This document shows positions 20,834-40,391 of a stretch of 64,000 bases of DNA, piece after piece (positions within the stretch are counted from its first letter, which is position 1; each line of letters opens with the position of its first letter). This stretch comes from a virus (taxonomy: Duplodnaviria > Caudoviricetes): the IMG/VR virus record IMGVR_UViG_3300028888_000002; one strand, 5' to 3'. The notes beneath the pieces were generated by a model that did not search any database, had not been told where the DNA came from, and saw nothing but the letters and a program-made list of their open reading frames with translations. The position numbers were made by a program, and so were the translations under genes.

Positions 20834-21517
20834 TCAAACTCCGATATTCCCGAACAGGTAGAACGGTCCTGTAAGTTGTCGGAGGCGTTGGTTCGCCACG
20901 TCGTAGTATTCCTTGCACAGTTCGGTCCCGATAAACTTTCGGGCTTCCAACACGGCTGCTTCTGCCGTGGTCCCGCTTCCAATGCAGGGGTCAAACACTA
21001 TATCCCCGTGGTTGGAACTAGCCCGTATGAGCCGTCTAAACAGGTCCAGGGGCTTTTCCGTCGGGTGTCGCTTGCTAGACCCGCAGGGGTGTCGCCATAC
21101 GGGGGATTGGCAGAACTCATTGAACGTTGCGTTGGACTTACGCATAAACACGCAGCATTCCACGGACGATAGCCAAAGGTGCTGCCCGTTCATAGGCGAT
21201 GGGTTCGTCTTTTCCCAAATACAGAGCCTTGTAGAAAGCCCCTTGTCAACTCCCGCCTTACGCAGCATAGACACCTGTTCTGTTCCACAGAAAATATAAA
21301 TGCTCCCCTTACAGATACGGATTACCTCGTCCATAAACTTGTCAAGCGGGAACGTTAGAACGTCGGCAGCTTCCTTGTTAATGTGACGCAGCCCGCCTTC
21401 TTCACGGTCGGAACATTCGTCGTAGGGAATATCCGTCAAGACCATATCCACGCAGTTGTCTTCTAGCCTTGCCATATATTCCAGGCAATCCATATTATAG
21501 AGTTTGTTCAATTCCAC
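20834..21517 (-). CDS. DNA N6-adenine/N4-cytosine methyltransferase, beta class (MTase 1)
   Basis: DCLE, TDIPY (motif IV), HPTEKP, DPCIGSGTT (motif I after IV). Confidence 0.9.
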   Translation of the reverse strand: MELNKLYNMDCLEYMARLEDNCVDMVLTDIPYDECSDREEGGLRHINKEAADVLTFPLDKFMDEVIRICKGSIYIFCGTEQVSMLRKAGVDKGLSTRLCIWEKTNPSPMNGQHLWLSSVECCVFMRKSNATFNEFCQSPVWRHPCGSSKRHPTEKPLDLFRRLIRASSNHGDIVFDPCIGSGTTAEAAVLEARKFIGTELCKEYYDVANQRLRQLTGPFYLFGNIGV

Positions 21518-21774: not shown

Positions 21775-23091
21775 TTAGGTTGCGTCTGCTGCGGGTTCGG
21801 CTACGGGTTCGGCAGCAGGCTTTTCAGCGTAGTTGTTGCCGTATTTGGCAGGACGCTTTGTCGCCACAGCGTCTTCGTGTTCTTCCCATTTCGCCCTTAC
21901 ACGTTCTGTGAGTTCCTTCGCCATTTCGGGGTTGTCTTCACACAGCTTAATAAGTTCGTCACGGGTAAATTCTTCGCCAAATTCGTCGTCAAAGTTAGCC
22001 TTGCGTTCGGGGTCTTCGGTAGCCCAACCGATAATCCAATCCACGGAAAGATTAGCGTTGCCTTCCTGGGATTTCTTGTCTTCCCTGCATTCCGCAGTCC
22101 AACCGTTCTTTTCAAGCCACGCTTTAAGGTTGGGGAGGGATTTCTTCTTTGCCGTAGCACTCCAAGCGATAGCGTTAGCAGCCTTTGTGAGCAGCTTGCC
22201 GTCGTCGCCACGCAGGTCAAACAGGTAGTCAATGTTGGAACCGATATTGTCAATACCGTAGTCAAAGTAAGCGGTATAGACGATTTCACGGAACGGACGG
22301 GGTGTCTTTGACTTCGTTGTAACAGCCTTGACGACCACGCCTACCTTTGTGCCCTCACGCTCAATAAATGCGAGCCTGGACAGCTTCAAGCGGGTATGGC
22401 AGTAGAACTCCATAGCGTCACCGTTGCCCGTTTTTTTCTTCGGGGCGAACGCACCCACGGCACCGAAGTTGCAGCGGGTCTGCGACACGATAATGAGCGT
22501 GAGTTTCTTGCGTTCCAACGCCTTGTGCTTGTTACGGAAAAAGTCCTGGGACAAGAACTTTGCGATTTGGGCACCGTAGTCACCGTCGTCCTTGACTTCT
22601 TCACCCTTTGCCTGCTGCTTTGCACGTTTGGCTTCCTTTTCCTTTTTGGTCTTGTCTGCAAGACCGTCCAGGGAGTCCACCGCATAGATACCATACATAT
22701 CTTCGGGCATCCAATTCAGCATATTCGTAAGTTTACCGTCCATTTCTTCAACGGTTTCGGAGTCTTCAAATTTAAGGTTTCCAATCTTACGAACTTCGGG
22801 GTGAATGTTCACACCATACAGGCGTTCGGTCTTGAACGTATCGCCCGTTTCGGAGTCGTCCGACTCCCAAACAAGTTTAGCTTTCGGACCGCCCATAGCC
22901 CAATAGGTTGACGCAATCATTTCGTTCTTGATAAAGGTCTTACCCGCAGAGCTATCGCCCCAAATTTGGATAATGGCACCGAACGGCAAACCATAGACAC
23001 CTTTATCGCCACCAATGAGCAGGTCAAGCAAATCGCTGCCCATACGCACACGGGGTTCTTCCACAACCACGTTTTCTTTCTTTTTAGCCAT
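21775..23091 (-). CDS. recA: RecA/UvsX-like recombinase with a 57-aa C-terminal insertion
   Basis: GSDLLDLLIGG..GLPFGAIIQIWGDSSAGKT (Walker A), AVDSLDGL (Walker B), IIVSQTR, GNGDAMEFY, KSKTPRPFR, YGID. Confidence 0.9.
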   Translation of the reverse strand: MAKKKENVVVEEPRVRMGSDLLDLLIGGDKGVYGLPFGAIIQIWGDSSAGKTFIKNEMIASTYWAMGGPKAKLVWESDDSETGDTFKTERLYGVNIHPEVRKIGNLKFEDSETVEEMDGKLTNMLNWMPEDMYGIYAVDSLDGLADKTKKEKEAKRAKQQAKGEEVKDDGDYGAQIAKFLSQDFFRNKHKALERKKLTLIIVSQTRCNFGAVGAFAPKKKTGNGDAMEFYCHTRLKLSRLAFIEREGTKVGVVVKAVTTKSKTPRPFREIVYTAYFDYGIDNIGSNIDYLFDLRGDDGKLLTKAANAIAWSATAKKKSLPNLKAWLEKNGWTAECREDKKSQEGNANLSVDWIIGWATEDPERKANFDDEFGEEFTRDELIKLCEDNPEMAKELTERVRAKWEEHEDAVATKRPAKYGNNYAEKPAAEPVAEPAADAT

Positions 23092-23105
23092 AGTAATATC
23101 CTGGT

Positions 23106-23140
23106 TAAAAAGGGGCGTTAGCGTGAGCCAACGCCCCCTG
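23106..23140 (-). terminator. intrinsic terminator after ssb
   Basis: GGGGCGTT..AACGCCCC followed by TTTTT on the minus strand. Confidence 0.75.
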
Positions 23141-23157
23141 TTTGTTTACGGGTTATT

Positions 23158-24717
23158 TTACTTCTTGCGAGCCATCAAGCGTTTGCACTTGTCACACTTG
23201 GACCAAATGGCTTCGGGACAACGGCTGCACAAAGGCATTTTTTCACAGTCGGTTCCGAACTCATAACCATTCGGGCATTCGCCTTCGTCCACGTCACGCT
23301 TCGGCACAGACCTCGGAGCGGGCTTTGCAGGCTGTTCTTCGGGCTGTTCGTCGTCAAACGGCATAGTCGGTGCAGGTGCTTCGGAACGGGTCGTTTCTTT
23401 GGACGAATCCTGGTCCACGGCAGTCTTGCGGGAATTGCGACGGGCTGCGGTGTAAGGGTCCGTATTGAAATCGGCTTCGTCAAGGGTAGCGTCTTTCGGT
23501 TCGTTATCCTTGAAGCGGGCAGGGGCTTCGTCCTGTGCAGGGCGACGACGTGCGGGTGCCTCGTCTTCTTCCTGGACGGGGCGACGACGAGCAGGGGCTT
23601 CGTCCTGCGGTTCTTCTGCAACAGGGCGACGACGAGTCGGTGCAGGCTGTTCGTCTTCGGCTTCGTCGGCAACAGGGCGACGACGTGCAGGTGCTTCGTC
23701 CTGCGGTTCTTCGGCAGCAGGACGACGACGTGCCTGTGCGGGCTGTTCGTCTTCTTCAACTTCTGCGTGGCGACGACGATTAGTCGGCTGTTCGTCACCC
23801 ATATCGTCGGACGGGTTGTTATCACGGAAACGTGCAGGTGTAGCCTGTCCTTCGTCGCCTTCGTCGGGCTGATTTTCATAGCCCTCTTCAACGTCGTCGG
23901 GGTCGCCATAAAGAGCAGCTTTAAGTTGGTCGTAGGTCTTAATCACCATCATAGCGTCAAGCGACGGGCACTTTGCGAGAACGTCCGCAGCGATTTCTTC
24001 CTTGCGTTCGTTGAACTCAAAGTTAGCAGCTTTCTTGAATTTCTTGCCGTTGCCCATAGTGTCTTCGTTCACGTTGAACGACACGACACGACCTTCTTCA
24101 ATGGAAGTGTCGGCAAAGTTCACAACGCCCTTGCCACGCATACAGGCGGTGGCACGGTCCTGCAAGTCCTTTGAGAAGACAGCGTGGGACACTTCAAAAA
24201 TCTTCGGGTCTTCGCCCTTGTCGTAAAATTCGTCGGTGAGTTCCTGGACAACGTAAATGCACTTGCGACGGGCAAAGAGCTTGCGGGCTTCGTCCTTTGT
24301 GCGTTCGTCTTTCCAAAGTTCGTCGGCACGTTCGCAAATCGGGCACGGCTTACCGAAGTTTTTCTTCGGGCAAATGTAGTCACCGTTCCCAGGTCCGATG
24401 CGGGTATGCACCATAAGGTCAAGCACGTAATCCAGGTCGCCAACCATAACCTTTGCGGGGTTCGGGTTGCCGTTACGCAGAAATTCGGGTTCGTCCTTTG
24501 TGCGGACAACTTCGGGATGGTTCTTTGTTGCAATCTTCCACGGAAGAATGTTAATGTCGTGGTAAGTGCCAGGGTCGCCCATTTTGAAAAATTTGAGTTT
24601 GGTGGACCCATAGTTCATAAATCCTTGACGGGTTACACCACCGTTGGATTCACGGGTATCTGTTTGCTGTTGGGTGCGACGACCCAGGGACATACGGCTG
24701 CGGTCATATCCTGCCAT
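23158..24717 (-). CDS. T4 gp32-like single-stranded DNA-binding protein with repetitive C-terminal region and terminal Cys cluster
   Basis: H..IG..N..YICPKKNFGKPCPICE zinc motif, long acidic tail, position between uvsY-like and recA. Confidence 0.75.
   Translation of the reverse strand: MAGYDRSRMSLGRRTQQQTDTRESNGGVTRQGFMNYGSTKLKFFKMGDPGTYHDINILPWKIATKNHPEVVRTKDEPEFLRNGNPNPAKVMVGDLDYVLDLMVHTRIGPGNGDYICPKKNFGKPCPICERADELWKDERTKDEARKLFARRKCIYVVQELTDEFYDKGEDPKIFEVSHAVFSKDLQDRATACMRGKGVVNFADTSIEEGRVVSFNVNEDTMGNGKKFKKAANFEFNERKEEIAADVLAKCPSLDAMMVIKTYDQLKAALYGDPDDVEEGYENQPDEGDEGQATPARFRDNNPSDDMGDEQPTNRRRHAEVEEDEQPAQARRRPAAEEPQDEAPARRRPVADEAEDEQPAPTRRRPVAEEPQDEAPARRRPVQEEDEAPARRRPAQDEAPARFKDNEPKDATLDEADFNTDPYTAARRNSRKTAVDQDSSKETTRSEAPAPTMPFDDEQPEEQPAKPAPRSVPKRDVDEGECPNGYEFGTDCEKMPLCSRCPEAIWSKCDKCKRLMARKK
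23515..23790 (-). repeat. tandem coding repeats (E/Q)DE(A/Q)PA(x)RRRP, about 6-7 units, in the SSB tail
   Basis: Repeated GACGAAGCCCCTGC..CGTCGTCGCCCTG units. Confidence 0.8.
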
Positions 24718-24867
24718 ATTGAACTCCTATTTGTTTAGTTTGCGTTTTGCGTTTTGTTTCTGTTCACTATTCACATAACCCTTTGGAGCGGAGAACCCCG
24801 CAGGGTTGATAATTCAATATAGCAACATAGCGACAAAATTGCTATATGTCATACTGAAAACTTTGTG

Positions 24868-25356
24868 TTACCTGCCGTTCAAATGCCTACGGATAGAGTT
24901 CGTGGATTCGTCGCCCGCCCAATCTTCGGCTACGCCTTTGGAACTCAACACGTTAGACTTTGACAGCATCATACGGACGGCACATTCAATCATAGACTTC
25001 TTTTGGTCAAGAGCCTTAACCTTGCCGTCCAACTTTTTAAATTCCTTTGTCTTTTCAACGATAACCTTACGCTGCTCCACCAGGCGGGAGTCGGACGCAA
25101 CCAGGGCTGTGACTTCGGGGATAGTCAACTTGACCTTGTTCTTTTCAGCGTCCTTACGGATTTCAAGTTCAACTTCGCCCTCCATTCGTTTGAGGGTGTC
25201 CGCTGCGTCGTCACGTTCCGCAAGGGCATCCACAGCCAGGTCGCTGTAATAGGCATACAAGGACGACTGCATAGCCACTGCGGGCTGCAAATCCATAAAG
25301 TCAATTTCCAAGTCGGGGTCAACCGTATTTATGGAAAAGTTGTAGTTCCCGTTCAT
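24868..25356 (-). CDS. UvsY-like recombination mediator (coiled coil)
   Basis: DLEID..DL....Q..LY.YY..L...A; KLTIPEV; LDQKKSMIE; context next to ssb/recA. Confidence 0.6.
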   Translation of the reverse strand: MNGNYNFSINTVDPDLEIDFMDLQPAVAMQSSLYAYYSDLAVDALAERDDAADTLKRMEGEVELEIRKDAEKNKVKLTIPEVTALVASDSRLVEQRKVIVEKTKEFKKLDGKVKALDQKKSMIECAVRMMLSKSNVLSSKGVAEDWAGDESTNSIRRHLNGR

Positions 25357-25398
25357 AAGGGTTCCTTTTGTTTAAGGGTTAATCGGGTTAAAAAATAA

Positions 25399-25471
25399 TG
25401 GACGTGACAGGGCTTGAACCTGTAACCGTCGGGTTATGAGTCCGATGCACTAACCATTGTGCTACACGTCC
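25399..25471 (-). tRNA. tRNA with CAT anticodon (Met or Ile2), no encoded CCA
   Basis: GGACGTG acceptor pairs with CACGTCC+A; D arm GCAC-AATGGTTA-GTGC; loop CTCATAA; T arm ACAGG-TTCAAGC-CCTGT. Confidence 0.9.
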
Positions 25472-25483
25472 ATTTCAGCCTAG

Positions 25484-26428
25484 CTACTTCAAGGACCTGT
25501 AAGCAGCCAGGACAATGCCAGGAAATCCCGTGTCATAGGTGTTAATGGCAAATTCTTCCATAACACGGCAAATGCGGTCACTGCTCTTTTTAAGCAGGAT
25601 AGCGGAGCAGTAACCCAGGACGGCACGACGGATAGTTTCAGCGTCAACGTTGCCCTTGAGTTCCCGCAGGGACTTGTTAATTTCATTCCAGGACGGCTTG
25701 CTGTCACAAAGGGCACGGCAAAGGTCCAGGGTATTCGGGTCGTCTTCAAGACCACCCTCCAGGATTTTCAACTGTGCTTCAACGTCGTTGGGGCTTGCCA
25801 TAACCTTTTCAAGTGCAACCAGGGCAGCACGGGGCGAGCCGTCGGCAGATTCAATGATAGCCGTAAGAACCTTGTCGTCCACTTCAAACTTTTCCGCTTC
25901 GGCAGTCCGCAGGACCAACTTGCCCAACTGTCGGGCGTTGAGCGGTTCTAGCTTCCATTGGGTGCTGCGGGTGGCGAGAGCCTTACCCTCGTCGCCTTTA
26001 AGCAACTGCTGTAAGTTCGTTGTGCAGAAGAAGAAATAGACGTGGGCGGGCATATCCTCGGTAGGCTTCAAGAATGCACGTTTAGCGTCTGCGGTCATAC
26101 CGTGGGCTTCGTCAATGATATAGACCACGGACCTGCCTTTAAGGGGCAGAGAACGCATTTGGTCCCTAATGTCACGGACGGTATCAATGCCACGGTTGTC
26201 GGACGTATTGATTTCGTGAATGCTGAAATCGGGGTCAGCGTGAAGCAGCTCCGTAGCGATAATGCGGGCGATTGTGGTCTTGCCTGCACCGCTAGACCCG
26301 TAGATAATGTGGCAGTGCGACACACGCTTCGGGTCCTGTGCGAAATGGGTTTGAATGGCATTGATTACCTCGGTGTTGCCTACCATATCGGCAAACGTCT
26401 TCGGGCGATACACTTGATAAAGTGACAT
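25484..26428 (-). CDS. dnaX: clamp loader, DnaX gamma/tau-like AAA+ ATPase
   Basis: SLYQVYRPKTFADMVG, GSSGAGKTT, RGIDTVR, IIDEAH, AFLKPTE, GSPRAAL. Confidence 0.9.
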   Translation of the reverse strand: MSLYQVYRPKTFADMVGNTEVINAIQTHFAQDPKRVSHCHIIYGSSGAGKTTIARIIATELLHADPDFSIHEINTSDNRGIDTVRDIRDQMRSLPLKGRSVVYIIDEAHGMTADAKRAFLKPTEDMPAHVYFFFCTTNLQQLLKGDEGKALATRSTQWKLEPLNARQLGKLVLRTAEAEKFEVDDKVLTAIIESADGSPRAALVALEKVMASPNDVEAQLKILEGGLEDDPNTLDLCRALCDSKPSWNEINKSLRELKGNVDAETIRRAVLGYCSAILLKKSSDRICRVMEEFAINTYDTGFPGIVLAAYRSLK

Positions 26429-26429
26429 A

Positions 26430-26789
26430 TTACAGATTCCCCAGGGAAATGTTGTATTTGGTGGTTAAGAGTTTTTCCAGGTCGTCCTTGAGCGAAAGGA
26501 CTTCGCCCATATTCGGGTCGTGACCCGTAAAGGTGCGGAGTATAGAAGACGCAAAGTCTTCAAGGTTGGAGTTCGCAAGTTCCTGTTCCTTTTCTTCAAG
26601 TTCTTCTTCCAGGTCTTCAACACGGGAAGCCAGGGTAGCATTGTCGTCTTCAAGGCTATCAATGCGGTCTTCGTATTCTGCCTGGAGTCTATCAATGCCG
26701 TCCTTGATTTCGTCGGCAATATCGGTATATTTTTCTGCAAGGCGGTCAACGTTGTCCTTGATGTCTTGCACGTCGGTATCTGTTACCAT
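26430..26789 (-). CDS. acidic coiled-coil hypothetical protein
   Basis: Start MVTDTD after AACCGAGGA RBS. Confidence 0.65.
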   Translation of the reverse strand: MVTDTDVQDIKDNVDRLAEKYTDIADEIKDGIDRLQAEYEDRIDSLEDDNATLASRVEDLEEELEEKEQELANSNLEDFASSILRTFTGHDPNMGEVLSLKDDLEKLLTTKYNISLGNL

Positions 26790-26835
26790 AGTTAATCCTC
26801 GGTTTTGGGTTAAAACAGTGATACGGGCACACGCT

Positions 26836-27090
26836 TTACGTGTTGACGGGTTCGGCACCCGTGTATTTTTGCAGCAGGCGTTCCACTTCGTTTTTGAAAT
26901 CAAGAACGTCGTTCTGCAACGGCACGGTCCCCGTATATTTTTTGAGAAGTTCATAGCATAACGATTCTGTCGTAATGTTATCCAGGACCGAAGCAGTGTC
27001 CGTCGGGAGCCTGTCAAGGTTATCAAGGGCTTCGGTAACTACCGCTTGAATATCGCCCAGGTATTTCTTTGCAACTTCAAAGTTATTCAT
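26836..27090 (-). CDS. hypothetical protein, paralog of the C-terminus of 26430..26789
   Basis: Shared L.N...E...L...TG..P....VL..K...E.LL..KY pattern. Confidence 0.65.
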   Translation of the reverse strand: MNNFEVAKKYLGDIQAVVTEALDNLDRLPTDTASVLDNITTESLCYELLKKYTGTVPLQNDVLDFKNEVERLLQKYTGAEPVNT

Positions 27091-27127
27091 AGGTTGGTTT
27101 CCTTAATAGGTATATAGTCGTATGGTG

Positions 27128-27910
27128 TCAAATTCCGATATTGCCGTAAATGTAGAACGGTCCCGTCAAGTCCCGCAGACGCTTGTTTGCCACTTCGCAG
27201 TATTCGGTATTTGTTTCAAATCCGATAAATTTGCGGTTTTCCATAACCGCAGCGACGGCAGTAGTCCCGCTACCCATACAGTTATCCAGGACCACTTCGC
27301 CAGGATTCGTGTAGGTTCTCACCAGGTATCGGATTAGGTCAACGGGCTTTTCCGTCGGGTGCAATTTGTTGGCGTGGACGGGCGTAAAGCTAATGATAGA
27401 TACGGGGTGTTTGTCCGTATAGACATTCTGCTGTTTAGCCATTGTATTCTTATGCAGCAGCCCGCAGGTGTTAAGCCCCCCGCCATTTCGCACGGGAACG
27501 TCCCGTAGGGTCTTTTGGGGATAATACCGCATAGAGTGACCGTTGTTGGTGAAACAAGCACTGCTCTTGCTGAATACGCTAATCAATTCGTGGATTCTAC
27601 CGCATTGGTAGTTCATTAGCTGAAAGTTGCTAGGCTTTTCCTTGTTCCAAACCCAATCGTAACGATACATAGCCACGTTGCTCGCACGTAGCAGGCTGCT
27701 GAATGGTTCGGAACCGAACAGGACAATAGCCCCATCTTCACGGATAACCCGCTTATACTGTTCCCACAGCGGTTCAAACGGGATAACAGAATCCCACTTG
27801 CAGGCGGTAGTCCCGTAAGGCAAATCGCAGATTATACAGTCAACGGAGCCGTCGGGGATTTCTTTCATACCCTCCAAACAGTCCATATTGTAAATGCGGT
27901 TCAAATCCAT
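27128..27910 (-). CDS. DNA N6-adenine/N4-cytosine methyltransferase, beta class (MTase 2)
   Basis: DCLEGM, CDLPYG, HPTEKP, DNCMGSGTT. Confidence 0.92.
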   Translation of the reverse strand: MDLNRIYNMDCLEGMKEIPDGSVDCIICDLPYGTTACKWDSVIPFEPLWEQYKRVIREDGAIVLFGSEPFSSLLRASNVAMYRYDWVWNKEKPSNFQLMNYQCGRIHELISVFSKSSACFTNNGHSMRYYPQKTLRDVPVRNGGGLNTCGLLHKNTMAKQQNVYTDKHPVSIISFTPVHANKLHPTEKPVDLIRYLVRTYTNPGEVVLDNCMGSGTTAVAAVMENRKFIGFETNTEYCEVANKRLRDLTGPFYIYGNIGI

Positions 27911-27913
27911 ACG

Positions 27914-28726
27914 CTATACTCCAATGTTTCCGTAGATATAGAACGGACCCGTCAAATCCCGCAGACGCTTGTTCGCCTTGTCAAAGTAATCCTTGTCGGT
28001 TTCAAACCCGATAAACTTACGGTTCTCTAAAACTGCTGCAACAGCAGTCGTCCCGCTACCCATACAGTTATCCAAAATGGTATCACCTGGATTTGAGTAG
28101 GTGCGGACAAGATAACGGATTAGCTCCACAGGTTTCTGTGTCGGGTGGAAGCGTTGGTCCAGGTCGCTCTTGTATTCCTTTGAGTAACTTTGGCAGTGCG
28201 GGATTTTCGCACATACTACGCTAATCGGATAGCGGGTTCCGTCTTCCTGCGGACGGGTCCTGTGCATAGACCCATAGATATTGTTCCCGATAAATTCATT
28301 GTCCTTAAAGGTCTTTCGCTGCGTGAGAAATTCCTTTTTATCCACAAGCCATTTCTGCGGGTTGAACGTAGGCTTCCCCGATTTGGAAAACACAATAATG
28401 TTTTCGTGAAGTTTAAGGTGCTTACTATCCTTGCTGAAACCCGAAGCAGGTTTGTTTTTGAGCCAACACAGTTCTTCCCTAAATTGGGAAATGTTGCTGC
28501 TAATGAGCATACTTGTAAACGGCTGCGAGCCGAACAAAATAATCGGGGCGGTATCTTTACAGATACGGTGGTATTGCTCCCACAGCGGTTCAAACGGAAT
28601 AACAGAATCCCAGGCACAAGAGGTCGTGCCATAAGGTAAATCACAAATGACACAATCCACCGTTCCGTCGGGAATTTCTTTCATTCCAACCAGGCAGTCT
28701 TCGTTATAAATTCTGTTCAGTTCCAT
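27914..28726 (-). CDS. DNA N6-adenine/N4-cytosine methyltransferase, beta class (MTase 3)
   Basis: Start MELNRIY; CDLPYG, HPTQKP, DNCMGSGTT. Confidence 0.92.
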   Translation of the reverse strand: MELNRIYNEDCLVGMKEIPDGTVDCVICDLPYGTTSCAWDSVIPFEPLWEQYHRICKDTAPIILFGSQPFTSMLISSNISQFREELCWLKNKPASGFSKDSKHLKLHENIIVFSKSGKPTFNPQKWLVDKKEFLTQRKTFKDNEFIGNNIYGSMHRTRPQEDGTRYPISVVCAKIPHCQSYSKEYKSDLDQRFHPTQKPVELIRYLVRTYSNPGDTILDNCMGSGTTAVAAVLENRKFIGFETDKDYFDKANKRLRDLTGPFYIYGNIGV

Positions 28727-28727
28727 A

Positions 28728-31412
28728 TCAATGTGCAGCCTCAAACTTCGCCTGCCAATTTTCGGGCATACCCTCGGTCCGCAAGGCTCCCACTTCTGTC
28801 ATTTTAGCCCAGGACCCGTCAACGTAAGACGCATCGGCTTCAATGACAAGCGGAACGCAAATCCACGGAAATTCTTCGCTTACACGCTTCACACCGTTGC
28901 CATAGACAATCTTCGCCACCTTGTCTTCTTCGCCCTCTTTAACGAGAGCAATAATAGCGTCGTGAATTTGTCCGATAATGCAGGAAAGCAAGCCCTGGGA
29001 CTTGAAGTCCTGCAAGTCGTAGGTCAATGCTCGCAGCAAGATATGGAACGCAGACCCTTGAATGCAGCAGTTCGTAGCCTGGGTGTAGCCCATAGGTCCC
29101 CAACAGCGGAAACCCGTGTAGGACTGCACATAGCCCATCTTTTGATAGCGGTCCCATTCGGTCCTACGCCACGCATTATAGACCTTGAAGCGTTGGTTCC
29201 AAAATATATCGTCGCCTTTCTTGACGTGTGCTTCCCACTTTTCGTAGGTCGTAATCTTGTGGTCCTTTGCCAAATGTTCCTTCGTGTAGGCAGGCATATT
29301 GTTCCACATATTTCGGGCACACGACTTGTAGGACGCACCGTAGAACGACGAGAACACATAGCCCGATTTGATAGACGAGCGTTCTTCCTTTGTAAGTTCT
29401 TCGGGCGTTCGGATATACATATCGCAAGCAGTATCACGGTGCATATCCGAAGCGGGGTTCTGCAAGTAGTGAATCATCTGCGGGTCGTGGTGATAGCTTG
29501 CGGACACCATAACTTCCAGGGACTTGTAGTCCATTTCCATAAAGCGGTAGCCCTTTGGAGCCACGAACAACGTTCGCAGGATTTTCTTCATTTCCTTATC
29601 ACGCTTCGGAATGTTTTGAAAGTTCGGGCTGTCAGCCGACGAACGGTAGGTTCGGGGACCCGCATCGTCTTCACCGCCCGCACCCGTTGACAGGTTAAAG
29701 AACGGACGGATTAGGTAGGCTTGCTTTTCTTCGTCCCATACGGCTTCACGTCTGTAGCCATCCAGGAAGTCCATAATCTTTGCCCAACGACGCATTCCCA
29801 AAATGGACTTGCAGAACGGGGTTCCCAACTTTTCCAGGGTGTCGCCCGTAGCGTCTTCCTTACCCGAAGGCGGTTTCAGCTTGCAAATCTTGTAAAGGAC
29901 TTCGGCAATTTGTTTGTTAGAGAGCGGGTTGAAAGTTTCGCCAGGGTGCAGCTTGCACCACTGCTTCGCTTCGTCGGACGCTTTGACGGCTTCTTCGGAT
30001 TCCTTGAACTTGTCTTCAAGTTCCTTTTGCAAGTCGTTAATCCTGCCATAGTCAATCGGCAAACCCTCGGACTGCACACGGGCGAGAGCGTCCATACCTT
30101 TCATAAAGAAGCGGAACGACTTTTCAAGACCAACCATCTGTGCGGACTGAATGTCACGCAGCGGGAGCGTATAAATGGAGTCAAGACCGCAATAGTAGAT
30201 AATGTCGCCTTTGGGGACACCCACGCCCTTTTTGAGCAGGTTAAAGGCGTTGCAGCTCTTTGTGTCTTCCCCGTCCATAATCGTAGAAATGAAATGGTCC
30301 GCTTTGTTGTCGTAGCCGATAACGCCCAATTCACAGTAGGTGTGGAATTTCAGCCCAACCTTTTGGGAGTTGTCTAGGACGTGGGCACCCAGGCAAGTGT
30401 CCCAGGACCAATTATCAATCCAATCTGTGCGGGAGTTATGCAGACCCGCCCTAAACCTGGTCCAACAGGCTTCATAGTCAGCCTTGTGTGCAACCAACCC
30501 TATTTTCTTGTGGTGCGTGAGTTTATACCAGGCATTCACCAGGCGTTCGTTGTCACCGTCCCACCAAATACCGATAGCGTGATACTCACCGTCCTTACGA
30601 TAGCCGACGGACGCAGCCTTGATTTCGTGACCTGCACGGTGGGGTTTCAAGCCCGTGGTTTCGTAATCAATGGAAACGTCGTGATAGCCTTCGGGAGCCT
30701 TGTCAAGTTGGTCTGTTTCAGCCCATTCAATGATTTCTTCAATCCAATCGGCTGCGGTGTCTGCATCGCCTGTGGTGCGAACGTCCGTCGGTATTTTCGG
30801 CAGCGGGGTATCTTTTATTTGATAGGCTAGACGGATATGCTGCGAGAAATACATATACGGGCAACCGTCGTCACGCTGCCAGGTCAAAAATTCGGGCGAG
30901 TAGGTCGGGCAAATCCAACAGTTGTAGAAGCGGTCGGGAATGCGTTTACCGTAAAGGTCCGACGGCTTCGTGTTGCCGATACGTCCGCTCATACGGTCCC
31001 AAATAAGTGCCTGGATAGCTGCGGGACCCATAGGAATGATTACGTTCGGCTTCAATTCGTTAATGAGCCTGTTCAAGCGTTCCTTGCAACAGTCGGGCTT
31101 CGGGTCCTTGTCGTTTTGACACGGGCACGGGATTACATAACCAATCCAGGCGGATTCCAGGAAATCCCTGGGCAGTCCACGCCTACCCTGCAAGTCCCAA
31201 AGATAATCATACATTTTATGTAGGAACACCGTGTCGTGGTCGTTGCCTTCCTTTCCACGGGGGTGGTCGCACAGGAACAGAACCTTGTCCTTGCCCTTAC
31301 CCGCAAACGGTAAATCCTTGCCCGATTGGTCTAATCCGCAGGCTAGACAGCCTGTAAGTTTCGGCTTCGCTGACATTGCTTGAATGGCAGCGGGAATTTT
31401 GAAAAAGCCCAT
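28728..31412 (-). CDS. polA: family A DNA polymerase with N-terminal UDG-family-4-like domain and 3'-5' exonuclease
   Basis: CLAC..CC UDG-like N-terminus; DYETTG exo I; RSSADSPNFQNIP; motif A DYKSLE; motif B RSSIKSGYVFSSFYG; motif C IHDA. Confidence 0.92.
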   Translation of the reverse strand: MGFFKIPAAIQAMSAKPKLTGCLACGLDQSGKDLPFAGKGKDKVLFLCDHPRGKEGNDHDTVFLHKMYDYLWDLQGRRGLPRDFLESAWIGYVIPCPCQNDKDPKPDCCKERLNRLINELKPNVIIPMGPAAIQALIWDRMSGRIGNTKPSDLYGKRIPDRFYNCWICPTYSPEFLTWQRDDGCPYMYFSQHIRLAYQIKDTPLPKIPTDVRTTGDADTAADWIEEIIEWAETDQLDKAPEGYHDVSIDYETTGLKPHRAGHEIKAASVGYRKDGEYHAIGIWWDGDNERLVNAWYKLTHHKKIGLVAHKADYEACWTRFRAGLHNSRTDWIDNWSWDTCLGAHVLDNSQKVGLKFHTYCELGVIGYDNKADHFISTIMDGEDTKSCNAFNLLKKGVGVPKGDIIYYCGLDSIYTLPLRDIQSAQMVGLEKSFRFFMKGMDALARVQSEGLPIDYGRINDLQKELEDKFKESEEAVKASDEAKQWCKLHPGETFNPLSNKQIAEVLYKICKLKPPSGKEDATGDTLEKLGTPFCKSILGMRRWAKIMDFLDGYRREAVWDEEKQAYLIRPFFNLSTGAGGEDDAGPRTYRSSADSPNFQNIPKRDKEMKKILRTLFVAPKGYRFMEMDYKSLEVMVSASYHHDPQMIHYLQNPASDMHRDTACDMYIRTPEELTKEERSSIKSGYVFSSFYGASYKSCARNMWNNMPAYTKEHLAKDHKITTYEKWEAHVKKGDDIFWNQRFKVYNAWRRTEWDRYQKMGYVQSYTGFRCWGPMGYTQATNCCIQGSAFHILLRALTYDLQDFKSQGLLSCIIGQIHDAIIALVKEGEEDKVAKIVYGNGVKRVSEEFPWICVPLVIEADASYVDGSWAKMTEVGALRTEGMPENWQAKFEAAH

Positions 31413-31477
31413 AAATCTTTATTCCGTAAACGTTAAACTTCTGTAATATAGATATAGCACAAGAGCGACTAAAAGAT

Positions 31478-31510
31478 AGAAATGCCGAAGCTATAAAGCC
31501 TCGGCATTCC
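31478..31510 (-). terminator. intrinsic terminator-like hairpin after clamp 1
   Basis: AATGCCGA..TCGGCATT followed by TCTATCTTTT on the minus strand. Confidence 0.6.
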
Positions 31511-31532
31511 TTTCTTACGAGGACACAACAAA

Positions 31533-32630
31533 CTATTTGGTAGCGGTCGCACCCTGGACGAACTGCATAAATTCGCCCGATTGGAAAACAAGGGACAAGG
31601 ACGGGGGAGCCGTCGGGTCCATATCCATATAGCAAAGGGTAAAGTCCATAACCTTGTTGGACGCTTCCAACAAGAACGAAGTGTTTACCCAAACTTCGGT
31701 GTTCTGCGGGTCTTCTTCAAGTTCGGTTTCCCACGGGATAGTTTCGGACGCTTCACCGCCTGTCTTTTCGGCATACAGTTCAAGTTCGTCCTTACGGAAC
31801 GTCAAACGCACCATACGGGCATTCTTCTTGTCAACGCCCGAAGCCAGGATAGCCACACGGGACACGGCTTCTGCGATATTGTTCGGAAGACGACCCTTGA
31901 CGAGAACCTTTGCTTTTTCAAATGCGGTCGGGAACGTAGAAAGACCGTCAAACGGATATGCTACGTGGTCCTTACGCTTTGCAGAAAACACGGTGCCGTC
32001 GGCATACTTGAGGTGCAACCAGGCATCGCTTACGCAGTAGCCCGTCGGGGTGCCCACCTTGAAAGCGTTGTTGAACACCGTATCGTCAACCCAAAACGGG
32101 TCCATACGTTCGGACAACTTGTTAATGCAGACACGCACGGAGTCGGTTTCATAGACTGCGGAGCCTTCGCCATAGTCATTCACTGCAACGCCACGGATAT
32201 TTTCAGCGTTACCCGAAAGATTACAGATATTCACAGCGTCAATGAATGCTTCGGGGAGGGGCTTGTATTCAAGCGACACCACGTTAAGGTCACGAATAAG
32301 GTTCATTACTTTGGACGAATCCTGGAGGGTCATAGTAGCCTTTGTGCGACCCGCCTTGATTTTAACCTTTGAGTCCACGACTTCAAGCGACAAGGTAACG
32401 TCGGACATACGGGAAACAAGGTTAAAGAAGTCCGCACCCTTTACAGAGAACGAAACGTTCTGCGTGTCGCACGGGGCAGACACAGCGATTTCGCTGTTGT
32501 AGGAACTGACAGACGCACCCGTGAAAAGAAGGAGGTCCGTGCCGTCAATCAAAGTGTTGCCTGTTTCAACACCAGGCATTACCTTTTTGAGAGATTCAAT
32601 GAGTTTAGCTTTTTCAATTTGGATTGCCAT
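31533..32630 (-). CDS. sliding clamp, DnaN/beta-like (clamp 1)
   Basis: 365 aa; I.K..L..SL..V, SYNSEIAVS, F.V....F.NLV, ETDSVR, YPF, AVSRVAILA; next to the polymerase. Confidence 0.75.
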   Translation of the reverse strand: MAIQIEKAKLIESLKKVMPGVETGNTLIDGTDLLLFTGASVSSYNSEIAVSAPCDTQNVSFSVKGADFFNLVSRMSDVTLSLEVVDSKVKIKAGRTKATMTLQDSSKVMNLIRDLNVVSLEYKPLPEAFIDAVNICNLSGNAENIRGVAVNDYGEGSAVYETDSVRVCINKLSERMDPFWVDDTVFNNAFKVGTPTGYCVSDAWLHLKYADGTVFSAKRKDHVAYPFDGLSTFPTAFEKAKVLVKGRLPNNIAEAVSRVAILASGVDKKNARMVRLTFRKDELELYAEKTGGEASETIPWETELEEDPQNTEVWVNTSFLLEASNKVMDFTLCYMDMDPTAPPSLSLVFQSGEFMQFVQGATATK

Positions 32631-32683
32631 TGTAGGTTTCCTTTATGTTGTTGTGTTCACGATAGGTATATAGTCGCATAGCG

Positions 32684-33313
32684 TCAATTACACGCTTTCT
32701 TGAATGCGTCCCAACGTTCGTCGTCTGCGTCAAAGCCTTCCAGGATAATGGGGGCTGCTTCGTGTGCATAGGGCAGGGCACGGACCGTGTTGTATTCGTA
32801 AAATTCTTCTGCGTCACGCAGTTTCAGTTCTTGCAGCAGTTCGGGATTTTGGAGTTCTTCTTCGGAGTATTCGCCCTTGTGGAGTTCCATAATATCCTTG
32901 TCGTCGTAGTCGTCTGCAAGACACTTGATACAGAGCTGTCTTTCATACACTGCAACAGTGACCTGGACTTCTTCGGTAAACTCACGGTCAAACAGGAACT
33001 TGCGATAATCGTCCCTGGCGACCCAAGACTTAATCCACCCCACCGAAAGTTCGTTGTTGCCCGTTTCTGCCACAAGCTGCATCCTGCACGACGACAAGAG
33101 GTCATTTGCGGTAAGCCATTTTTCCAGGTCTTTAAGGGTGTATTCCTTGTCCCTGGTCCTGGTGACTTCCGTTGTGCCAATCATAGCCTTTTCAAGCCCG
33201 TGCAGAATGCAAATGTTGTCACCCTCAAATTCGTCACGGCAGGTCGCTTCGTCAAATCGTTCCTTGACGAGTGCCCCGCAGTGGTCCAAATTGTATTCGG
33301 TATTCTGTTCCAT
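32684..33313 (-). CDS. conserved-type phage hypothetical protein carrying a 57-aa insertion homologous to the RecA insertion
   Basis: GLEKAMIG [insert] VAVYERQLCI...AEEFYEYNT...PII. Confidence 0.75.
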   Translation of the reverse strand: MEQNTEYNLDHCGALVKERFDEATCRDEFEGDNICILHGLEKAMIGTTEVTRTRDKEYTLKDLEKWLTANDLLSSCRMQLVAETGNNELSVGWIKSWVARDDYRKFLFDREFTEEVQVTVAVYERQLCIKCLADDYDDKDIMELHKGEYSEEELQNPELLQELKLRDAEEFYEYNTVRALPYAHEAAPIILEGFDADDERWDAFKKACN

Positions 33314-34853: not shown

Positions 34854-37076
34854 TTAGCGACCAAACCTGGCACCCTTGCGTTCCAGGATTTCTGTCAGCA
34901 AGTCGGTGGAAGCGGTTTCCTTTCCGTCCAAAACGCCATCAAGCATTTTCGCCCTAGCGTCCAGGACTTCAATGGCTTCCATATCCACGGTTCCAGGTGC
35001 TACAAGATAGTAAGAAGTGACGGAGTTATGCTGCCCCGACCTGTGCAGACGGTCTTCTGCCTGCCTGTGGAAGTTCGGGGTGTGCGAAAATTCAGCGAAA
35101 GCCACATCGGAGCAGACTTCCTGGAAGCCGTCAATGCCGACACCGCCCGCCTGGATATTGGCGACGATTACACGGCACTTTGGGTCGTTAATGAACTTCT
35201 TACGGGTTTCTTCACGTTCCGTGGCGGTCATACCGCCATAGATAATCGCAGGGCTGTAATCCTTGAGCGTGTCATAGAGGACTTCCACGACGGAGCGGTG
35301 CCACGCAAACAGCAGCAACTTCTTGTCCGATTCCAGGAAGTCTTCAATCCACTGCAACATAGACTTCTCTTTGAGAGCGTAGGCGGTTCGGAGCAGGTGG
35401 GCGACCTTATTGCGGGCGTTCTCACGTTCGCCCTTGATAGTTTCACCCGAAAATGCGATACGTTCCTCTTCGTAGTAATCGTCCATAGCGGATTGGTCCA
35501 CTTCAAGCGGGACGACTTCCATAACTTTGGGCGGGAGGTCTTTCATTACTTCGTTCTTCGTCCTGCGGAGCATACAGCGGACAAGCAGTTCGTGGAGTTC
35601 TTCCACATTGGACGCACCGTTGAACTTTACCCTGCCATAGCTGTCAGTCTGCGGGTCACAATACCTGTTCTTGAACATATAGAAGTTCTTGAACATAGAC
35701 GGCTCCACGATAGAAAGCAGCGTCCAAAACTGCATAGGCTTTGACATAGCGGGCGTTCCGCTCATACCGATACAGTGCGGGATAATCTTTGAGAGTTCCT
35801 TGAAAGCGATAGCTCTTTGAGAGTCGGGGTTTCCGATAGCCTGCACTTCGTCGCCTACAAGCAGACGGAACCCAACCTGGGCAAGCGGACCATCGCACAC
35901 GTAGAACACGTTGGTTTTACCGTTGCGTTCGGTGGACTCAAAGTGCCCCGCCCAATCCGAAAGCACGTCCCAATTTATGATATAGCTCTTATACTTTGAC
36001 AGCGGGTGCGGGGTCTTACCGCTCAACACTTCAACGTCGGGATAATGCTTCTTTGTAGCCCCTACCCATTTCCTATACGCTTCCTGCCACTGCAACTTCG
36101 TAGGGGCGTTCACCACATAAAGAGCGGGATAGGCATTCGCATAGACCATCCAGGACAACGCTTCTACGGTCTTACCGCAGTTGTGGACGACTGTATGGTT
36201 CGCAACAAAGTTCCCGAAATTCAGCACCTTTACGTCGTAGGTCATTCGCATTCCTGCGGACGTGATAGACACGACTTTCGCCATAGCGGACTTGCCGTCC
36301 CTTTCAACCTGGACGTATGCGTTCAAGGTGTCCTTGATTTCGGTCCAACCACTATCCGTAAGCACCTTATGGTCGGGCGTGGCAATAATGTAGGTATCGT
36401 CTTCAAGGGTAGCGTGGACGCAGCGTTTGATACCGCTTTGGATAACGTCCACGACTTCACCCATACCCAACGTATGCCCGTCTGCCAACAAACACTGAAT
36501 ATCCCAATCGCACGTCCCCTTTGTCCTGGCGAAAGCACGATACAGGGATTCCAGGGAAGTCTTGCGGGTCTTCCCGTTATTTCGGACGGTCACGGTCATA
36601 TCGCCACAGACGCAACCCATTTCGTCGCCCAGGGCAAGGCGACCGTGACGGAGCTGTGCGAACTTCAAGAAATCAATTTGGTAAGAACGCAGCCCAGGAA
36701 TAAGGGTTCCTTCGGGGTCCAACTTCGTAGCGTCAATCTTTGCCTGCTGCTTAACACGGGGGTCTTCACGCTTTTCGTTGGGGTCCTTTTCTTTCGGGGG
36801 ATTTGTCCAACCCGAAGCCTCCATCCAGGTCTTCGTCCCAATGTTCCAGGGAACTTCCCATTTTTGAGTCGCAGCGTTGTATTGACGTTCGGGCAGCTTG
36901 CGAACGCCTTCAAGAACTTTCTTCCAGGCATCCTTGTTATACGTGAACCAGGTCAACGCCACAATGGACTTGTCAACTTTCGTAAATTCGGCTTCATATC
37001 GCACACCCGCAATAGGTTCAATGGGCGTGGGGGCACGGCTCAATCTGTCCGACAAGCCAATAAGGTCATAACTCAT
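34854..37076 (-). CDS. SNF2/SMARCAL1-like helicase with HARP-like N-terminus and mini-intein
   Basis: LRSYQ, DEMG|CGKT, DEVQ, MSGTP, LRRTK, AGGVGID, QAEDRLHRSGQ. Confidence 0.9.
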   Translation of the reverse strand: MSYDLIGLSDRLSRAPTPIEPIAGVRYEAEFTKVDKSIVALTWFTYNKDAWKKVLEGVRKLPERQYNAATQKWEVPWNIGTKTWMEASGWTNPPKEKDPNEKREDPRVKQQAKIDATKLDPEGTLIPGLRSYQIDFLKFAQLRHGRLALGDEMGCVCGDMTVTVRNNGKTRKTSLESLYRAFARTKGTCDWDIQCLLADGHTLGMGEVVDVIQSGIKRCVHATLEDDTYIIATPDHKVLTDSGWTEIKDTLNAYVQVERDGKSAMAKVVSITSAGMRMTYDVKVLNFGNFVANHTVVHNCGKTVEALSWMVYANAYPALYVVNAPTKLQWQEAYRKWVGATKKHYPDVEVLSGKTPHPLSKYKSYIINWDVLSDWAGHFESTERNGKTNVFYVCDGPLAQVGFRLLVGDEVQAIGNPDSQRAIAFKELSKIIPHCIGMSGTPAMSKPMQFWTLLSIVEPSMFKNFYMFKNRYCDPQTDSYGRVKFNGASNVEELHELLVRCMLRRTKNEVMKDLPPKVMEVVPLEVDQSAMDDYYEEERIAFSGETIKGERENARNKVAHLLRTAYALKEKSMLQWIEDFLESDKKLLLFAWHRSVVEVLYDTLKDYSPAIIYGGMTATEREETRKKFINDPKCRVIVANIQAGGVGIDGFQEVCSDVAFAEFSHTPNFHRQAEDRLHRSGQHNSVTSYYLVAPGTVDMEAIEVLDARAKMLDGVLDGKETASTDLLTEILERKGARFGR
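36180..36614 (-). mobile_element. mini-intein (145 aa, no homing endonuclease) in the helicase Walker A motif
   Basis: Starts CVCGDMTV (block A), ATPDHKVLT (block B TxxH), TYDVKV..NFVAN (block F), VVHN|C (block G). Confidence 0.92.
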
Positions 37077-39281: not shown

Positions 39282-40391
39282 TTACGACATAGGTGCAAAC
39301 AGAGTAGTCGCTTTGCCGTCCGTCCACACGGTCGGGTGTGTCAAGAACTTCGTAGCCTTGAACACTACGGGTGAATTGTCGTCAAAGCGTTCCATAAGTT
39401 TAAGAAGTGCCAAAGCGTCCATTTTGACACCCGTGTAGTTGTCAAATGCGTAGTCCGACGGGACCGCCTGCACACCCAGGTATTCCGTGCCATACGTGAG
39501 CATTACAGGGCAGAACCCCTTTGTCGTATGCTTCACGATTACGGACAAGCGTTTCAGTTCGTCACGGAGCGACTTTACGTTCACTTTAAGGACCGTGGTG
39601 AACTTGTCCTGGGTATCAACGATATGGTGGAAATCGGGGTAGGTCCCGCCAACGAACGCACCATACACAGAGAACTGCTTACCCTCAAAACTGTAATGCC
39701 CTACGTGCAACATAAGGTTACAGTCAGTGCCTAGCAGGGACATAGCCTTGAACGCCTTGCACGGAATGGCACGACGGAATGTAGGTTCCTGGACTAGACT
39801 TGTGTAAATGAGTGCGTGGCGGTCCGTCGCAGCGAACCCGTGATTTACGTCGCTGCTTTCAAACAGAATGCTGTTCAATGCCGTGTATTGGGTGTCTTCA
39901 ATGCACAGGGGCGAAATGTATTTGTGGATATACTTAATGTCATATTCCGTCATAGTTACCCACCCCTCGTCCGTATCAATGGGGATAACTAGCGTCGGGC
40001 AGTCCTTACCAGGAACGCCCGCAATCTTACCGCAGGTCAAGCAGTTGTCCTTGAACACCAGGGCTGTGCCCTCACGTTCCACCAGGAACACACCGCTGCT
40101 GCGGGGAGCCTTTGCGAGCATATTTTCCAAAGTCGGGTATTCAACAGCCAGGTCAATTTCCCCACTTCCACGAAGCCCTTTCAACGAAAGGTCAGCGTAG
40201 CATTCCGTATCGGTCACACGGATAAAGCCGTCCCCGTCCTTATAGTAGATACGGACAAACTTTAAAATTTGGACGGTTGTCCTCTTCGGGACAATGCAGT
40301 TCACGGCAGAAATGAACCGTGCGAGCAGGTCACGGGAAATGCTAAACGACGCTTCGGCTGTCTTTGATTTCAATGCAAGATTAAAAGCCAT
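39282..40391 (-). CDS. sliding clamp, DnaN/beta-like (clamp 2)
   Basis: FSISRDLL...VPKRTTVQIL...VTDTE; ALNSILFE; AATDRHAL; GTYPDFHHIV; C-terminal LFAPM. Confidence 0.8.
   Translation of the reverse strand: MAFNLALKSKTAEASFSISRDLLARFISAVNCIVPKRTTVQILKFVRIYYKDGDGFIRVTDTECYADLSLKGLRGSGEIDLAVEYPTLENMLAKAPRSSGVFLVEREGTALVFKDNCLTCGKIAGVPGKDCPTLVIPIDTDEGWVTMTEYDIKYIHKYISPLCIEDTQYTALNSILFESSDVNHGFAATDRHALIYTSLVQEPTFRRAIPCKAFKAMSLLGTDCNLMLHVGHYSFEGKQFSVYGAFVGGTYPDFHHIVDTQDKFTTVLKVNVKSLRDELKRLSVIVKHTTKGFCPVMLTYGTEYLGVQAVPSDYAFDNYTGVKMDALALLKLMERFDDNSPVVFKATKFLTHPTVWTDGKATTLFAPMS

What the first reader, a model, noticed from the sequence alone, without database searches (positions are those of the whole stretch)
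21970..33139. Same 57-aa domain inserted in RecA and in an unrelated phage protein
Seen: RecA residues encoded at 21970-22140 (SLPNLKAWLEKNGWTAECREDKKSQEGNANLSVDWIIGWATEDPERKANFDDEFGEE) align without gaps to 32969-33139 in ORF 32684..33313 (TLKDLEKWLTANDLLSSCRMQLVAETGNNELSVGWIKSWVARDDYRKFLFDREFTEE). They share 24/57 identities, including three Trp, CR, GN, LSV, RK and FD.EF.EE. From my recollection of these families, the segment interrupts otherwise contiguous sequence in both: GL..A.IG|VAVY in the hypothetical protein, and the C-terminal domain in RecA. Inference: a small mobile helical module used as a homotypic docking domain, or a decoy/regulator that mimics the RecA surface.
Basis: partly seen in the sequence, partly recalled or inferred. 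Interest (0 to 1): 0.7.

Follow-up and report, generated by a model that had tools for sequence, protein, structure and literature searches.

The report
RecA piece copied into neighbouring gene
A rumen phage's DNA-recombination enzyme (RecA) carries a small, previously undescribed four-helix add-on, and a copy of that add-on was once pasted into an unrelated gene 11 kb away, where related phages now have it or lack it; it is a clean case of a domain being born and re-used, not a roaming mobile module.

Summary
Both genes lie on the minus strand; the segments share 24/57 identities without gaps (score 135 against a shuffled maximum of 74), and insertion-free relatives exist for both proteins. 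The segment is predicted as a four-helix domain (pLDDT 88) at a beta-hairpin tip in each host. It does not roam: among 1.84 billion proteins it occurs only in this phage RecA/UvsX family and in this one ORF family. Its two halves resemble RecA's own terminal helix pair (profile probability 57-85%; 107 decoys at most 13%), so it probably arose by internal duplication in RecA. All ORF copies form one clade that groups with the RecAs of the same rumen phages: one capture, RecA to ORF, then swapping among ORF alleles. Two phages 96-98% identical, with 99% identical recA, differ by exactly these 195 nt; two complete relatives have no detectable ORF. The ORF copy is under purifying selection but has lost RecA's conserved basic patch (K340), which argues against a RecA mimic or an obligatory docking pair. 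Function is inferred only: an optional DNA-capture extension in RecA, an exapted accessory surface in the ORF. Moderate interest.

The parts
21775..23091 (-). Phage RecA/UvsX-family recombinase, 438 aa, long form (carries the extra domain); inferred birthplace and donor of the domain
   Evidence: Pfam RecA E 1e-14, PHROG 97 E 1e-29; Walker A at 22936-22959, Walker B at 22669-22689
21970..22140 (-). The 57-aa four-helix domain in RecA (aa 318-374), at the C-terminal-domain hairpin tip
22066..22149 (-). Repeat unit R1 (aa 315-342; helices 1-2), resembles the terminal helix pair of insertion-free family RecAs; carries the basic patch K336/K-R339/K340
   Evidence: hhalign 78% against insertion-free RecAs, 53-59% against bacterial RecA; conservation
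21979..22053 (-). Repeat unit R2 (aa 347-371; helices 3-4), resembles the native helix pair that follows
   Evidence: hhalign 60-83% against R3, 57-64% against bacterial RecA
21886..21975 (-). Native RecA terminal helix pair R3 (aa 373-402); R377 aligns with E. coli K302
   Evidence: 88% against bacterial RecA; 98% against insertion-free family members
32684..33313 (-). Host ORF, 209 aa, phrog_13182-like hypothetical protein between the DnaB-like helicase and beta-clamp genes; recipient of the domain
32969..33139 (-). The 57-aa copy of the domain in the ORF (aa 59-115)
32960..33163 (-). Whole inserted block in the ORF (aa 51-118): domain plus short linkers that lengthen the beta-hairpin; net +195 nt against the empty allele

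Best explanation
A domain born in RecA and captured once by a neighbouring gene. Step 1 (inferred, about 0.65): in a large non-T4 family of phage RecA/UvsX recombinases, the terminal helix pair of the C-terminal domain was tandemly duplicated; the two extra copies fold together as a four-helix appendage at the tip of the C-terminal hairpin, and have since been lost (or regained) several times. Step 2 (well supported, about 0.85): in one clade of ~215-kb rumen phages a copy was joined in frame, by non-homologous recombination, into the hairpin turn of a small accessory gene 11 kb away in the same replication module. Step 3 (shown): filled and empty alleles of that gene, and different versions of the insert, are exchanged between phages by ordinary homologous recombination. 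How it works (inferred, about 0.4): in RecA the appendage projects next to the duplex-DNA gateway and its conserved basic helix-2 patch gives an extra, optional contact for DNA capture. In the ORF the fold is kept but that patch has become hydrophobic, so it serves as a new accessory binding or packing surface of a dispensable protein and does not imitate RecA.
For: Distribution: 28 of 31 profile hits in 1.84 billion proteins are RecAs or RecA fragments, one is the ORF family, two are repetitive false hits. Repeat origin: in-register profile matches of 57-85% against 0 of 107 decoy windows at 50% (maximum 13%); the length gain equals two ~29-aa units. Direction: ORF copies are one clade (95/94 and 95/97), joined with same-clade RecAs against distant RecAs at 94/93; that RecA clade is shallow in the RecA-core tree; distant ORF homologues are all empty. 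Reassortment: L016 and L021 are 96-98% identical over 20 kb, recA 99%, and differ by 195 nt inside a short divergent patch; filled alleles are not a clade on the host tree (AU p 0.013). Selection: insert dN/dS mostly 0.12-0.6 in the ORF, 0.03-0.48 in RecA. Surface: K340 in 30/30 near and 26/37 distant RecAs, mostly I/V/L in ORF copies. Position: hairpin tip in both; the RecA C-terminal surface binds duplex DNA through K280, K282, K286, K302 (PMC4666392).
Against: The repeat signal is moderate and uneven (R1 against R3 only 2-3%, R2 against the insertion-free pair 8%), and no RecA with a single extra unit was seen. The domain tree rests on 61 columns; nesting of the ORF clade inside the near RecA clade is not significant (AU p 0.24). 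The DNA-contact role is weak: the domain is net acidic (about -3), neither extra unit keeps a basic residue at the K302-equivalent position, and K340 could be structural. The function of the host ORF is unknown, so the role of its copy is a guess.
Confidence: 0.6

Rival explanations
1. Tolerated passenger: in one or both hosts the domain has no specific job. It is a stable folding unit whose ends lie close together, so it fits a hairpin tip, and selection only keeps it folded and in frame.
For: Shared conservation is mostly core. The insert is the fastest-changing part of both proteins, e.g. pN 0.22 against 0.01 in the RecA core for window vs L010. It is lost repeatedly in RecA (at least 3, probably 6 changes) and absent from near-identical phages in the ORF.
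Against: Kept in 61 of 79 sampled family RecAs down to 40-50% identity (sample biased towards long forms). Non-core positions are conserved in a host-specific way (K340 in RecA; Y362, R363, R369 in the ORF). ORF inserts persist to synonymous saturation with dN/dS below 1.
Confidence: 0.2
2. Homotypic docking or RecA-surface decoy: the ORF uses its copy to bind RecA's copy, or to titrate whatever binds RecA there (a phage partner or a host defence sensor).
For: Both genes lie in one replication/recombination module. Every filled ORF whose genome could be read through to recA co-occurs with a long-form RecA. Some exposed or capping positions are shared (G344, D360, R363). The insert varies fast and is swapped between alleles, as arms-race modules are. 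Defence pressure on phage replication proteins is documented (PMC10684548).
Against: Long-form RecA is far more widespread than the ORF copy. Complete relatives have no detectable ORF. Identical RecA domains occur with and without the ORF copy. The best-conserved RecA surface residues are lost in the ORF. ORF copies are not consistently closer to their own genome's RecA than to others'.
Confidence: 0.12
3. A genuinely mobile or selfish module (intein-like insert, homing cassette or promiscuous domain) that entered both genes independently from a third source.
For: Precise in-frame presence/absence at one site with a divergent flanking patch recalls homing co-conversion; these phages carry inteins.
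Against: No third host or free-standing copy in the exhaustive profile search; no intein or nuclease signature, no flanking direct or inverted repeats; ORF copies group with RecA copies of the same phage clade; the domain resembles RecA's own helices.
Confidence: 0.05
4. Reverse direction: the domain came from the ORF family into RecA.
For: An unrooted tree of the domain alone cannot fix direction.
Against: The domain spans a deep, multi-habitat radiation of RecAs but only a shallow rumen subset of the ORF family, whose outgroups are all empty.
Confidence: 0.03

Closest known systems
Bacterial RecA C-terminal domain (E. coli residues ~270-330) and T4 UvsX C-terminal domain
   Same: ATPase core motifs and the C-terminal layout (helix, beta-hairpin, terminal helix pair) align; R377 matches K302. 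The C-terminal domain is the duplex-DNA gateway (PMC4666392; PMC12890299).
   Different: An extra four-helix, ~58-aa domain at the hairpin tip; no solved RecA or UvsX sequence matches it, and no Pfam or PHROG model covers it.
Domain mosaicism in phage proteins (PMC10684548)
   Same: A fragment shared between otherwise unrelated phage proteins, one of them a core replication/recombination protein, with recent allele shuffling.
   Different: Donor and recipient lie in the same genome, the fragment is inserted inside a fold rather than fused at an end, its likely birth by duplication in the donor is traceable, and empty alleles of both hosts survive.
phrog_13182-like hypothetical phage proteins (e.g. 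Bacillus phage Mater CPT_Mater52)
   Same: The host ORF's empty relatives match this family (E 1e-6 to 3e-9); the fold matches unnamed viral Atlas clusters (TM 0.61-0.65 by target).
   Different: This lineage has added a second ~30-aa insertion, in some members a C-terminal phrog_34775 piece, and in others the RecA-derived domain.
Inteins and homing-endonuclease inserts (e.g. RecA inteins)
   Same: In-frame insert with filled and empty alleles and a divergent flanking patch.
   Different: No splicing or nuclease motifs, only 65 aa, helical, lengthens the host hairpin and is predicted to stay in the protein.

Membership tests
RecA/UvsX recombinase (gene 21775..23091) | P-loop ATPase core with Walker A, catalytic Glu, Walker B and the Q194 and K248/K250 equivalents | tested here: met
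   Pfam PF00154 54.7 bits (cut-off 27), PHROG 97 E 1e-29; motifs located
RecA/UvsX recombinase (gene 21775..23091) | C-terminal domain with beta-hairpin and terminal helix pair | tested here: met
   Aligns to E. coli 266-330 once aa 315-374 are gapped; R3 vs bacterial helices 88%
RecA/UvsX recombinase (gene 21775..23091) | ATP-dependent filament formation and strand exchange | not testable with these tools
   Inferred from motifs and from gp32-like, helicase and clamp neighbours
Bacterial RecA equivalog (TIGR02012) | Score above the curated cut-off | tested here: not met
   64 bits against 325: a phage lineage, not a captured host recA
Internal repeat of the RecA terminal helix pair | In-register profile similarity of each half to the native pair, above decoys | tested here: met
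   57-85% against a decoy maximum of 13% in 107 windows; moderate strength, some pairings weak
Internal repeat of the RecA terminal helix pair | Structural superposition of R1 and R2 on R3, or one-unit intermediates | tested here: inconclusive
   Each half is a helix pair in the model; no superposition could be run; no one-unit intermediate among about 60 family members
Promiscuous mobile domain | Occurs in several unrelated architectures or stand-alone | tested here: not met
   Two host families only in an exhaustive profile search of 50%-cluster representatives; inserts hidden inside clusters with empty representatives could be missed
Intein / homing endonuclease insert | Splicing-junction residues, HINT fold or nuclease domain | tested here: not met
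   No such Pfam hit in 82 members; all-helical model
Transposon or target-duplicating insertion | Terminal inverted repeats or flanking direct repeats | tested here: not met
   None at the junctions; old junctions may have decayed
Known small helical folds (SAM, HEH/Ish1/SAP, CARD/death, histone fold) | Significant profile or structural match | tested here: inconclusive
   Sub-threshold Pfam hits only (SAM_3 best E 0.003, Ish1 0.003-0.03); best Z 4.0, rmsd 2.6 over 49 residues
RecA surface mimic / homotypic docking pair | Surface residues conserved between copies and linked presence of both | tested here: not met
   Basic patch lost in ORF copies; RecA domain present without the ORF copy
RecA surface mimic / homotypic docking pair | Physical binding | not testable with these tools
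   Needs a binding assay

The most novel reading that the evidence does not exclude
The phage turned a piece of its own recombinase into a swappable decoy or regulator: the filled ORF displays a RecA-derived surface that soaks up a host defence sensor or tunes the RecA filament, and the fast change and allele swapping of the insert track an arms race with rumen hosts.
Probability: 0.12. Interest if true: 0.75.

Novelty: new variant of a known kind. Interest (0 to 1): 0.42.

Why it matters
It gives a rare, nearly complete record of a protein domain's life: probable birth by duplication inside RecA, repeated loss, one capture by an unrelated gene of the same genome, surface remodelling, and present-day polymorphism, with natural filled/empty pairs for both hosts (including phages 96-98% identical). 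It also describes an unannotated C-terminal architecture common in a large uncultured family of phage recombinases, beside the duplex-DNA gateway, which can be tested directly and may bear on recombinases used as reagents. It does not reveal a new kind of system, and no function is shown.

Tried and rejected
Plus-strand reading: wrong strand. Fold searches gave no clear match: Foldseek PDB and BFVD no hit at E 0.001; VIA-align best Z 4.0 for the domain and 4.6 for the whole ORF; this shows neither a known nor a new fold. The ESM Atlas feature search listed RecA_C and T4_UVSX_C clusters at 0.77-0.81, a lead only. Complex prediction of the RecA C-terminal region with the ORF: no answer (score 0.03, mark 0.32), no evidence either way. 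The search of longer proteins in the 5.8-billion set returned only RecA-type hits but was capped at 8000 candidates and missed the ORF family itself, so it is weak. Origin from the UvsY-like neighbour (24868..25356), suggested by a similar helix-cap motif: rejected, hhalign 1.5%. Ongoing gene conversion between the window's two copies: 17 of 22 shared residues use the same codon, but other ORF/RecA pairs reach similar values and the two residues that differ from the closest relative are single-base changes not matching the RecA codon throughout; not supported. Structured RNA or intron at either site: none. PADLOC and NCBIfam: nothing for the ORF or the domain. No cultured phage with either filled gene. 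Transcription: contigs of one sheep metatranscriptome sample cover both segments, but contigs cannot show transcription. Host not determined: database labels are MAG bins (Clostridia, Fibrobacter, Prevotella) and unreliable. Literature searches found no description of this domain.
Full report
Observation. Both genes are on the minus strand. The RecA-like gene is 21775..23091 (438 aa) and the stated segment is aa 318-374; the second gene is 32684..33313 (209 aa) and the segment is aa 59-115. They align without gaps at 24/57; the whole-protein local score is 135 against a maximum of 74 in 5000 shuffles, and no third copy exists in the window. Family profiles match at 99%, E 2e-18. Contigs from other studies bridge both segments, and the phage occurs in sheep and cattle gut samples. 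The region is a phage replication module: gp32-like SSB, clamp loader, family A polymerase, beta clamp, DnaB-like helicase, SNF2 helicase, primase. The closest complete relatives are about 215 kb.

It is an insertion in both hosts. Of 45 homologues of the ORF, about half are 65 aa shorter at exactly this place. Filled and empty genes occupy the same slot between the helicase and clamp genes. More distant homologues (107 aa in a 346-kb rumen contig; Bacillus phage Mater) are empty, so empty is ancestral. AlphaFold places the block at the tip of a long beta-hairpin, with pLDDT above 90 over the domain. In RecA, family members fall into short and long forms differing by about 55-60 aa, and the extra piece maps to the C-terminal hairpin tip, E. 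coli 293-297. Alone it folds as four helices, pLDDT 88.

It is not a roaming module. A profile of 82 copies run against 1.84 billion representatives gave 31 hits: 28 RecAs or RecA fragments, one ORF-family protein and two repetitive false hits. No Pfam, PHROG or PDB sequence describes it. There is no intein, nuclease or terminal-repeat signature. A limit: an insert hidden in a cluster with an empty representative would be missed.

Where it came from. The domain reads as two units of about 29 aa, each a capped helix, a short turn and a second helix, directly before RecA's native terminal helix pair, which has the same pattern. The helix pair of insertion-free family RecAs, an independent set, matches unit 1 at 78% (RecA) and 85% (ORF copy); unit 2 matches the native pair at 60-83%; both match bacterial RecA helices in register at 53-64%. 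None of 107 decoy windows reached 50%; the best was 13%. The signal is moderate, some pairings are weak, and no one-unit intermediate was seen, so duplication is inferred (about 0.65). It would account for the two-unit length gain and, by repeat collapse, for the 3-6 changes between long and short forms on the RecA-core tree. An origin from the UvsY-like neighbour was tested and rejected.

Direction and number of events. All 23 distinct ORF copies form one clade (95/94 and 95/97 in careful trees) and share one site and length. They join the RecAs of the same rumen phages against distant RecAs at 94/93; whether they nest inside that group or sit beside it is unresolved (AU p 0.24). That RecA group is shallow in the core tree rooted on bacterial RecA, and the invariant C335 of ORF copies is a trait of it (28/30 near against 7/37 distant). 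With the empty ORF outgroups, this gives one capture from RecA to the ORF (about 0.85). Rows left out of the careful trees were near-duplicates and long branches.

What happened since. Filled alleles are not a clade on the host-only tree (3-4 changes; AU p 0.013). L016 and L021 are 96-98% identical across 20 kb with 99% identical recA, yet differ by these 195 nt inside a short patch of about 80% identity bounded by identical sequence: an allele swap by homologous recombination. Two complete relatives have long-form RecA and no detectable ORF. The ORF insert is under purifying selection (dN/dS mostly 0.12-0.6) but is the most variable part of the protein; the RecA insert is likewise more variable than the core in the window's lineage.

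How it likely works. Shared positions are chiefly the hydrophobic core and helix caps. RecA copies keep a basic patch on helix 2 (K336, K/R339, K340; K340 in 30/30 near and 26/37 distant sequences), whereas ORF copies have mostly I, V or L at 340 and their own conserved positions in helix 4. In bacterial RecA this region is the gateway for duplex DNA through K280, K282, K286 and K302 (PMC4666392; also 10.1101/2025.04.21.649820), and the native unit here keeps R377 at the K302 position. I therefore read the RecA copy as an optional extension of the DNA-capture surface (inference, about 0.4; against it, the domain is net acidic and the extra units lack the K302 equivalent), and the ORF copy as an exapted, remodelled surface on a dispensable protein of unknown role.

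Comparison with known systems. It works like the domain shuffling documented across phage proteins, replication proteins included (PMC10684548). The gene is a RecA/UvsX-family member but not a bacterial equivalog. The domain itself has no described family. It fails the tests for intein, transposon and promiscuous domain.

Verdict. A real, undescribed domain with an unusually complete history; a new variant of a known process; function unproven. Interest 0.42.

Noticed in passing
window 34854..37076 (-), about aa 155-300: SNF2 helicase carries a short intein without a homing-endonuclease hit (Pfam Intein_splicing); also present in relatives.
   Followed up: no
window 20834..21517, 27128..27910, 27914..28744 (-): Three paralogous N6/N4 DNA methyltransferase-like genes with a near-identical C-terminal tail; relatives carry from one to eight or more copies at shifting positions in this module (L016, L019, L020), and contigs show rearrangements among them.
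   Followed up: no
window 25399-25471 (-): tRNA gene between the clamp-loader gene and the 162-aa gene (Rfam).
   Followed up: no
window 31533..32630 and 39282..40391 (-): Two beta-clamp-like genes in one module.
   Followed up: no
window 28728..31412 (-): Family A DNA polymerase with an N-terminal uracil-DNA-glycosylase-like domain.
   Followed up: no
window 23158..24717 (-): gp32-like SSB with a long acidic/arginine repeat tail whose length varies among relatives (335-519 aa; indels) and a C-terminal cysteine cluster.
   Followed up: no
window 24868..25356 (-): 162-aa helical protein conserved next to the SSB and RecA genes across the family; looks UvsY-like (from memory; only unnamed PHROGs 1069 and 2058 hit).
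   Followed up: partly
L006:8693-11152; proteins P0125, P0141, P0150: Close relatives carry a LAGLIDADG intein in the RecA P-loop; the window's recA is the empty allele.
   Followed up: no
ORF family, P0035-P0046; window ORF about aa 135-165: The host ORF accretes modules: a second ~30-aa insertion relative to short outgroups, and a C-terminal phrog_34775 add-on in a sister group that lies outside the replication module.
   Followed up: partly
L206:3741-4276; Atlas rows: The host fold is linked to helix-turn-helix regulators (next to one in phage Mater; shape match within an HTH_3 protein of Fibrobacterota) and matches part of phage NAD synthase proteins: a lead to its function.
   Followed up: no
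L016:9971-10000: The filled allele in L016 lacks one base in an A-run just after the start codon, so it was called from a later Met; assembly slip or early decay.
   Followed up: no
window 21970-22140 against L010 and L002: In the window's lineage the RecA insert changes much faster than the core (pN 0.22 and 0.12 against 0.01 and 0.02), unlike the sister lineage L003/L004/L013/L016 (0.04-0.06 against 0.06-0.08); unexplained.
   Followed up: partly
L011:15118-17013: Clamp-loader gene of 631 aa against 314 aa in the window, probably intein-bearing.
   Followed up: no
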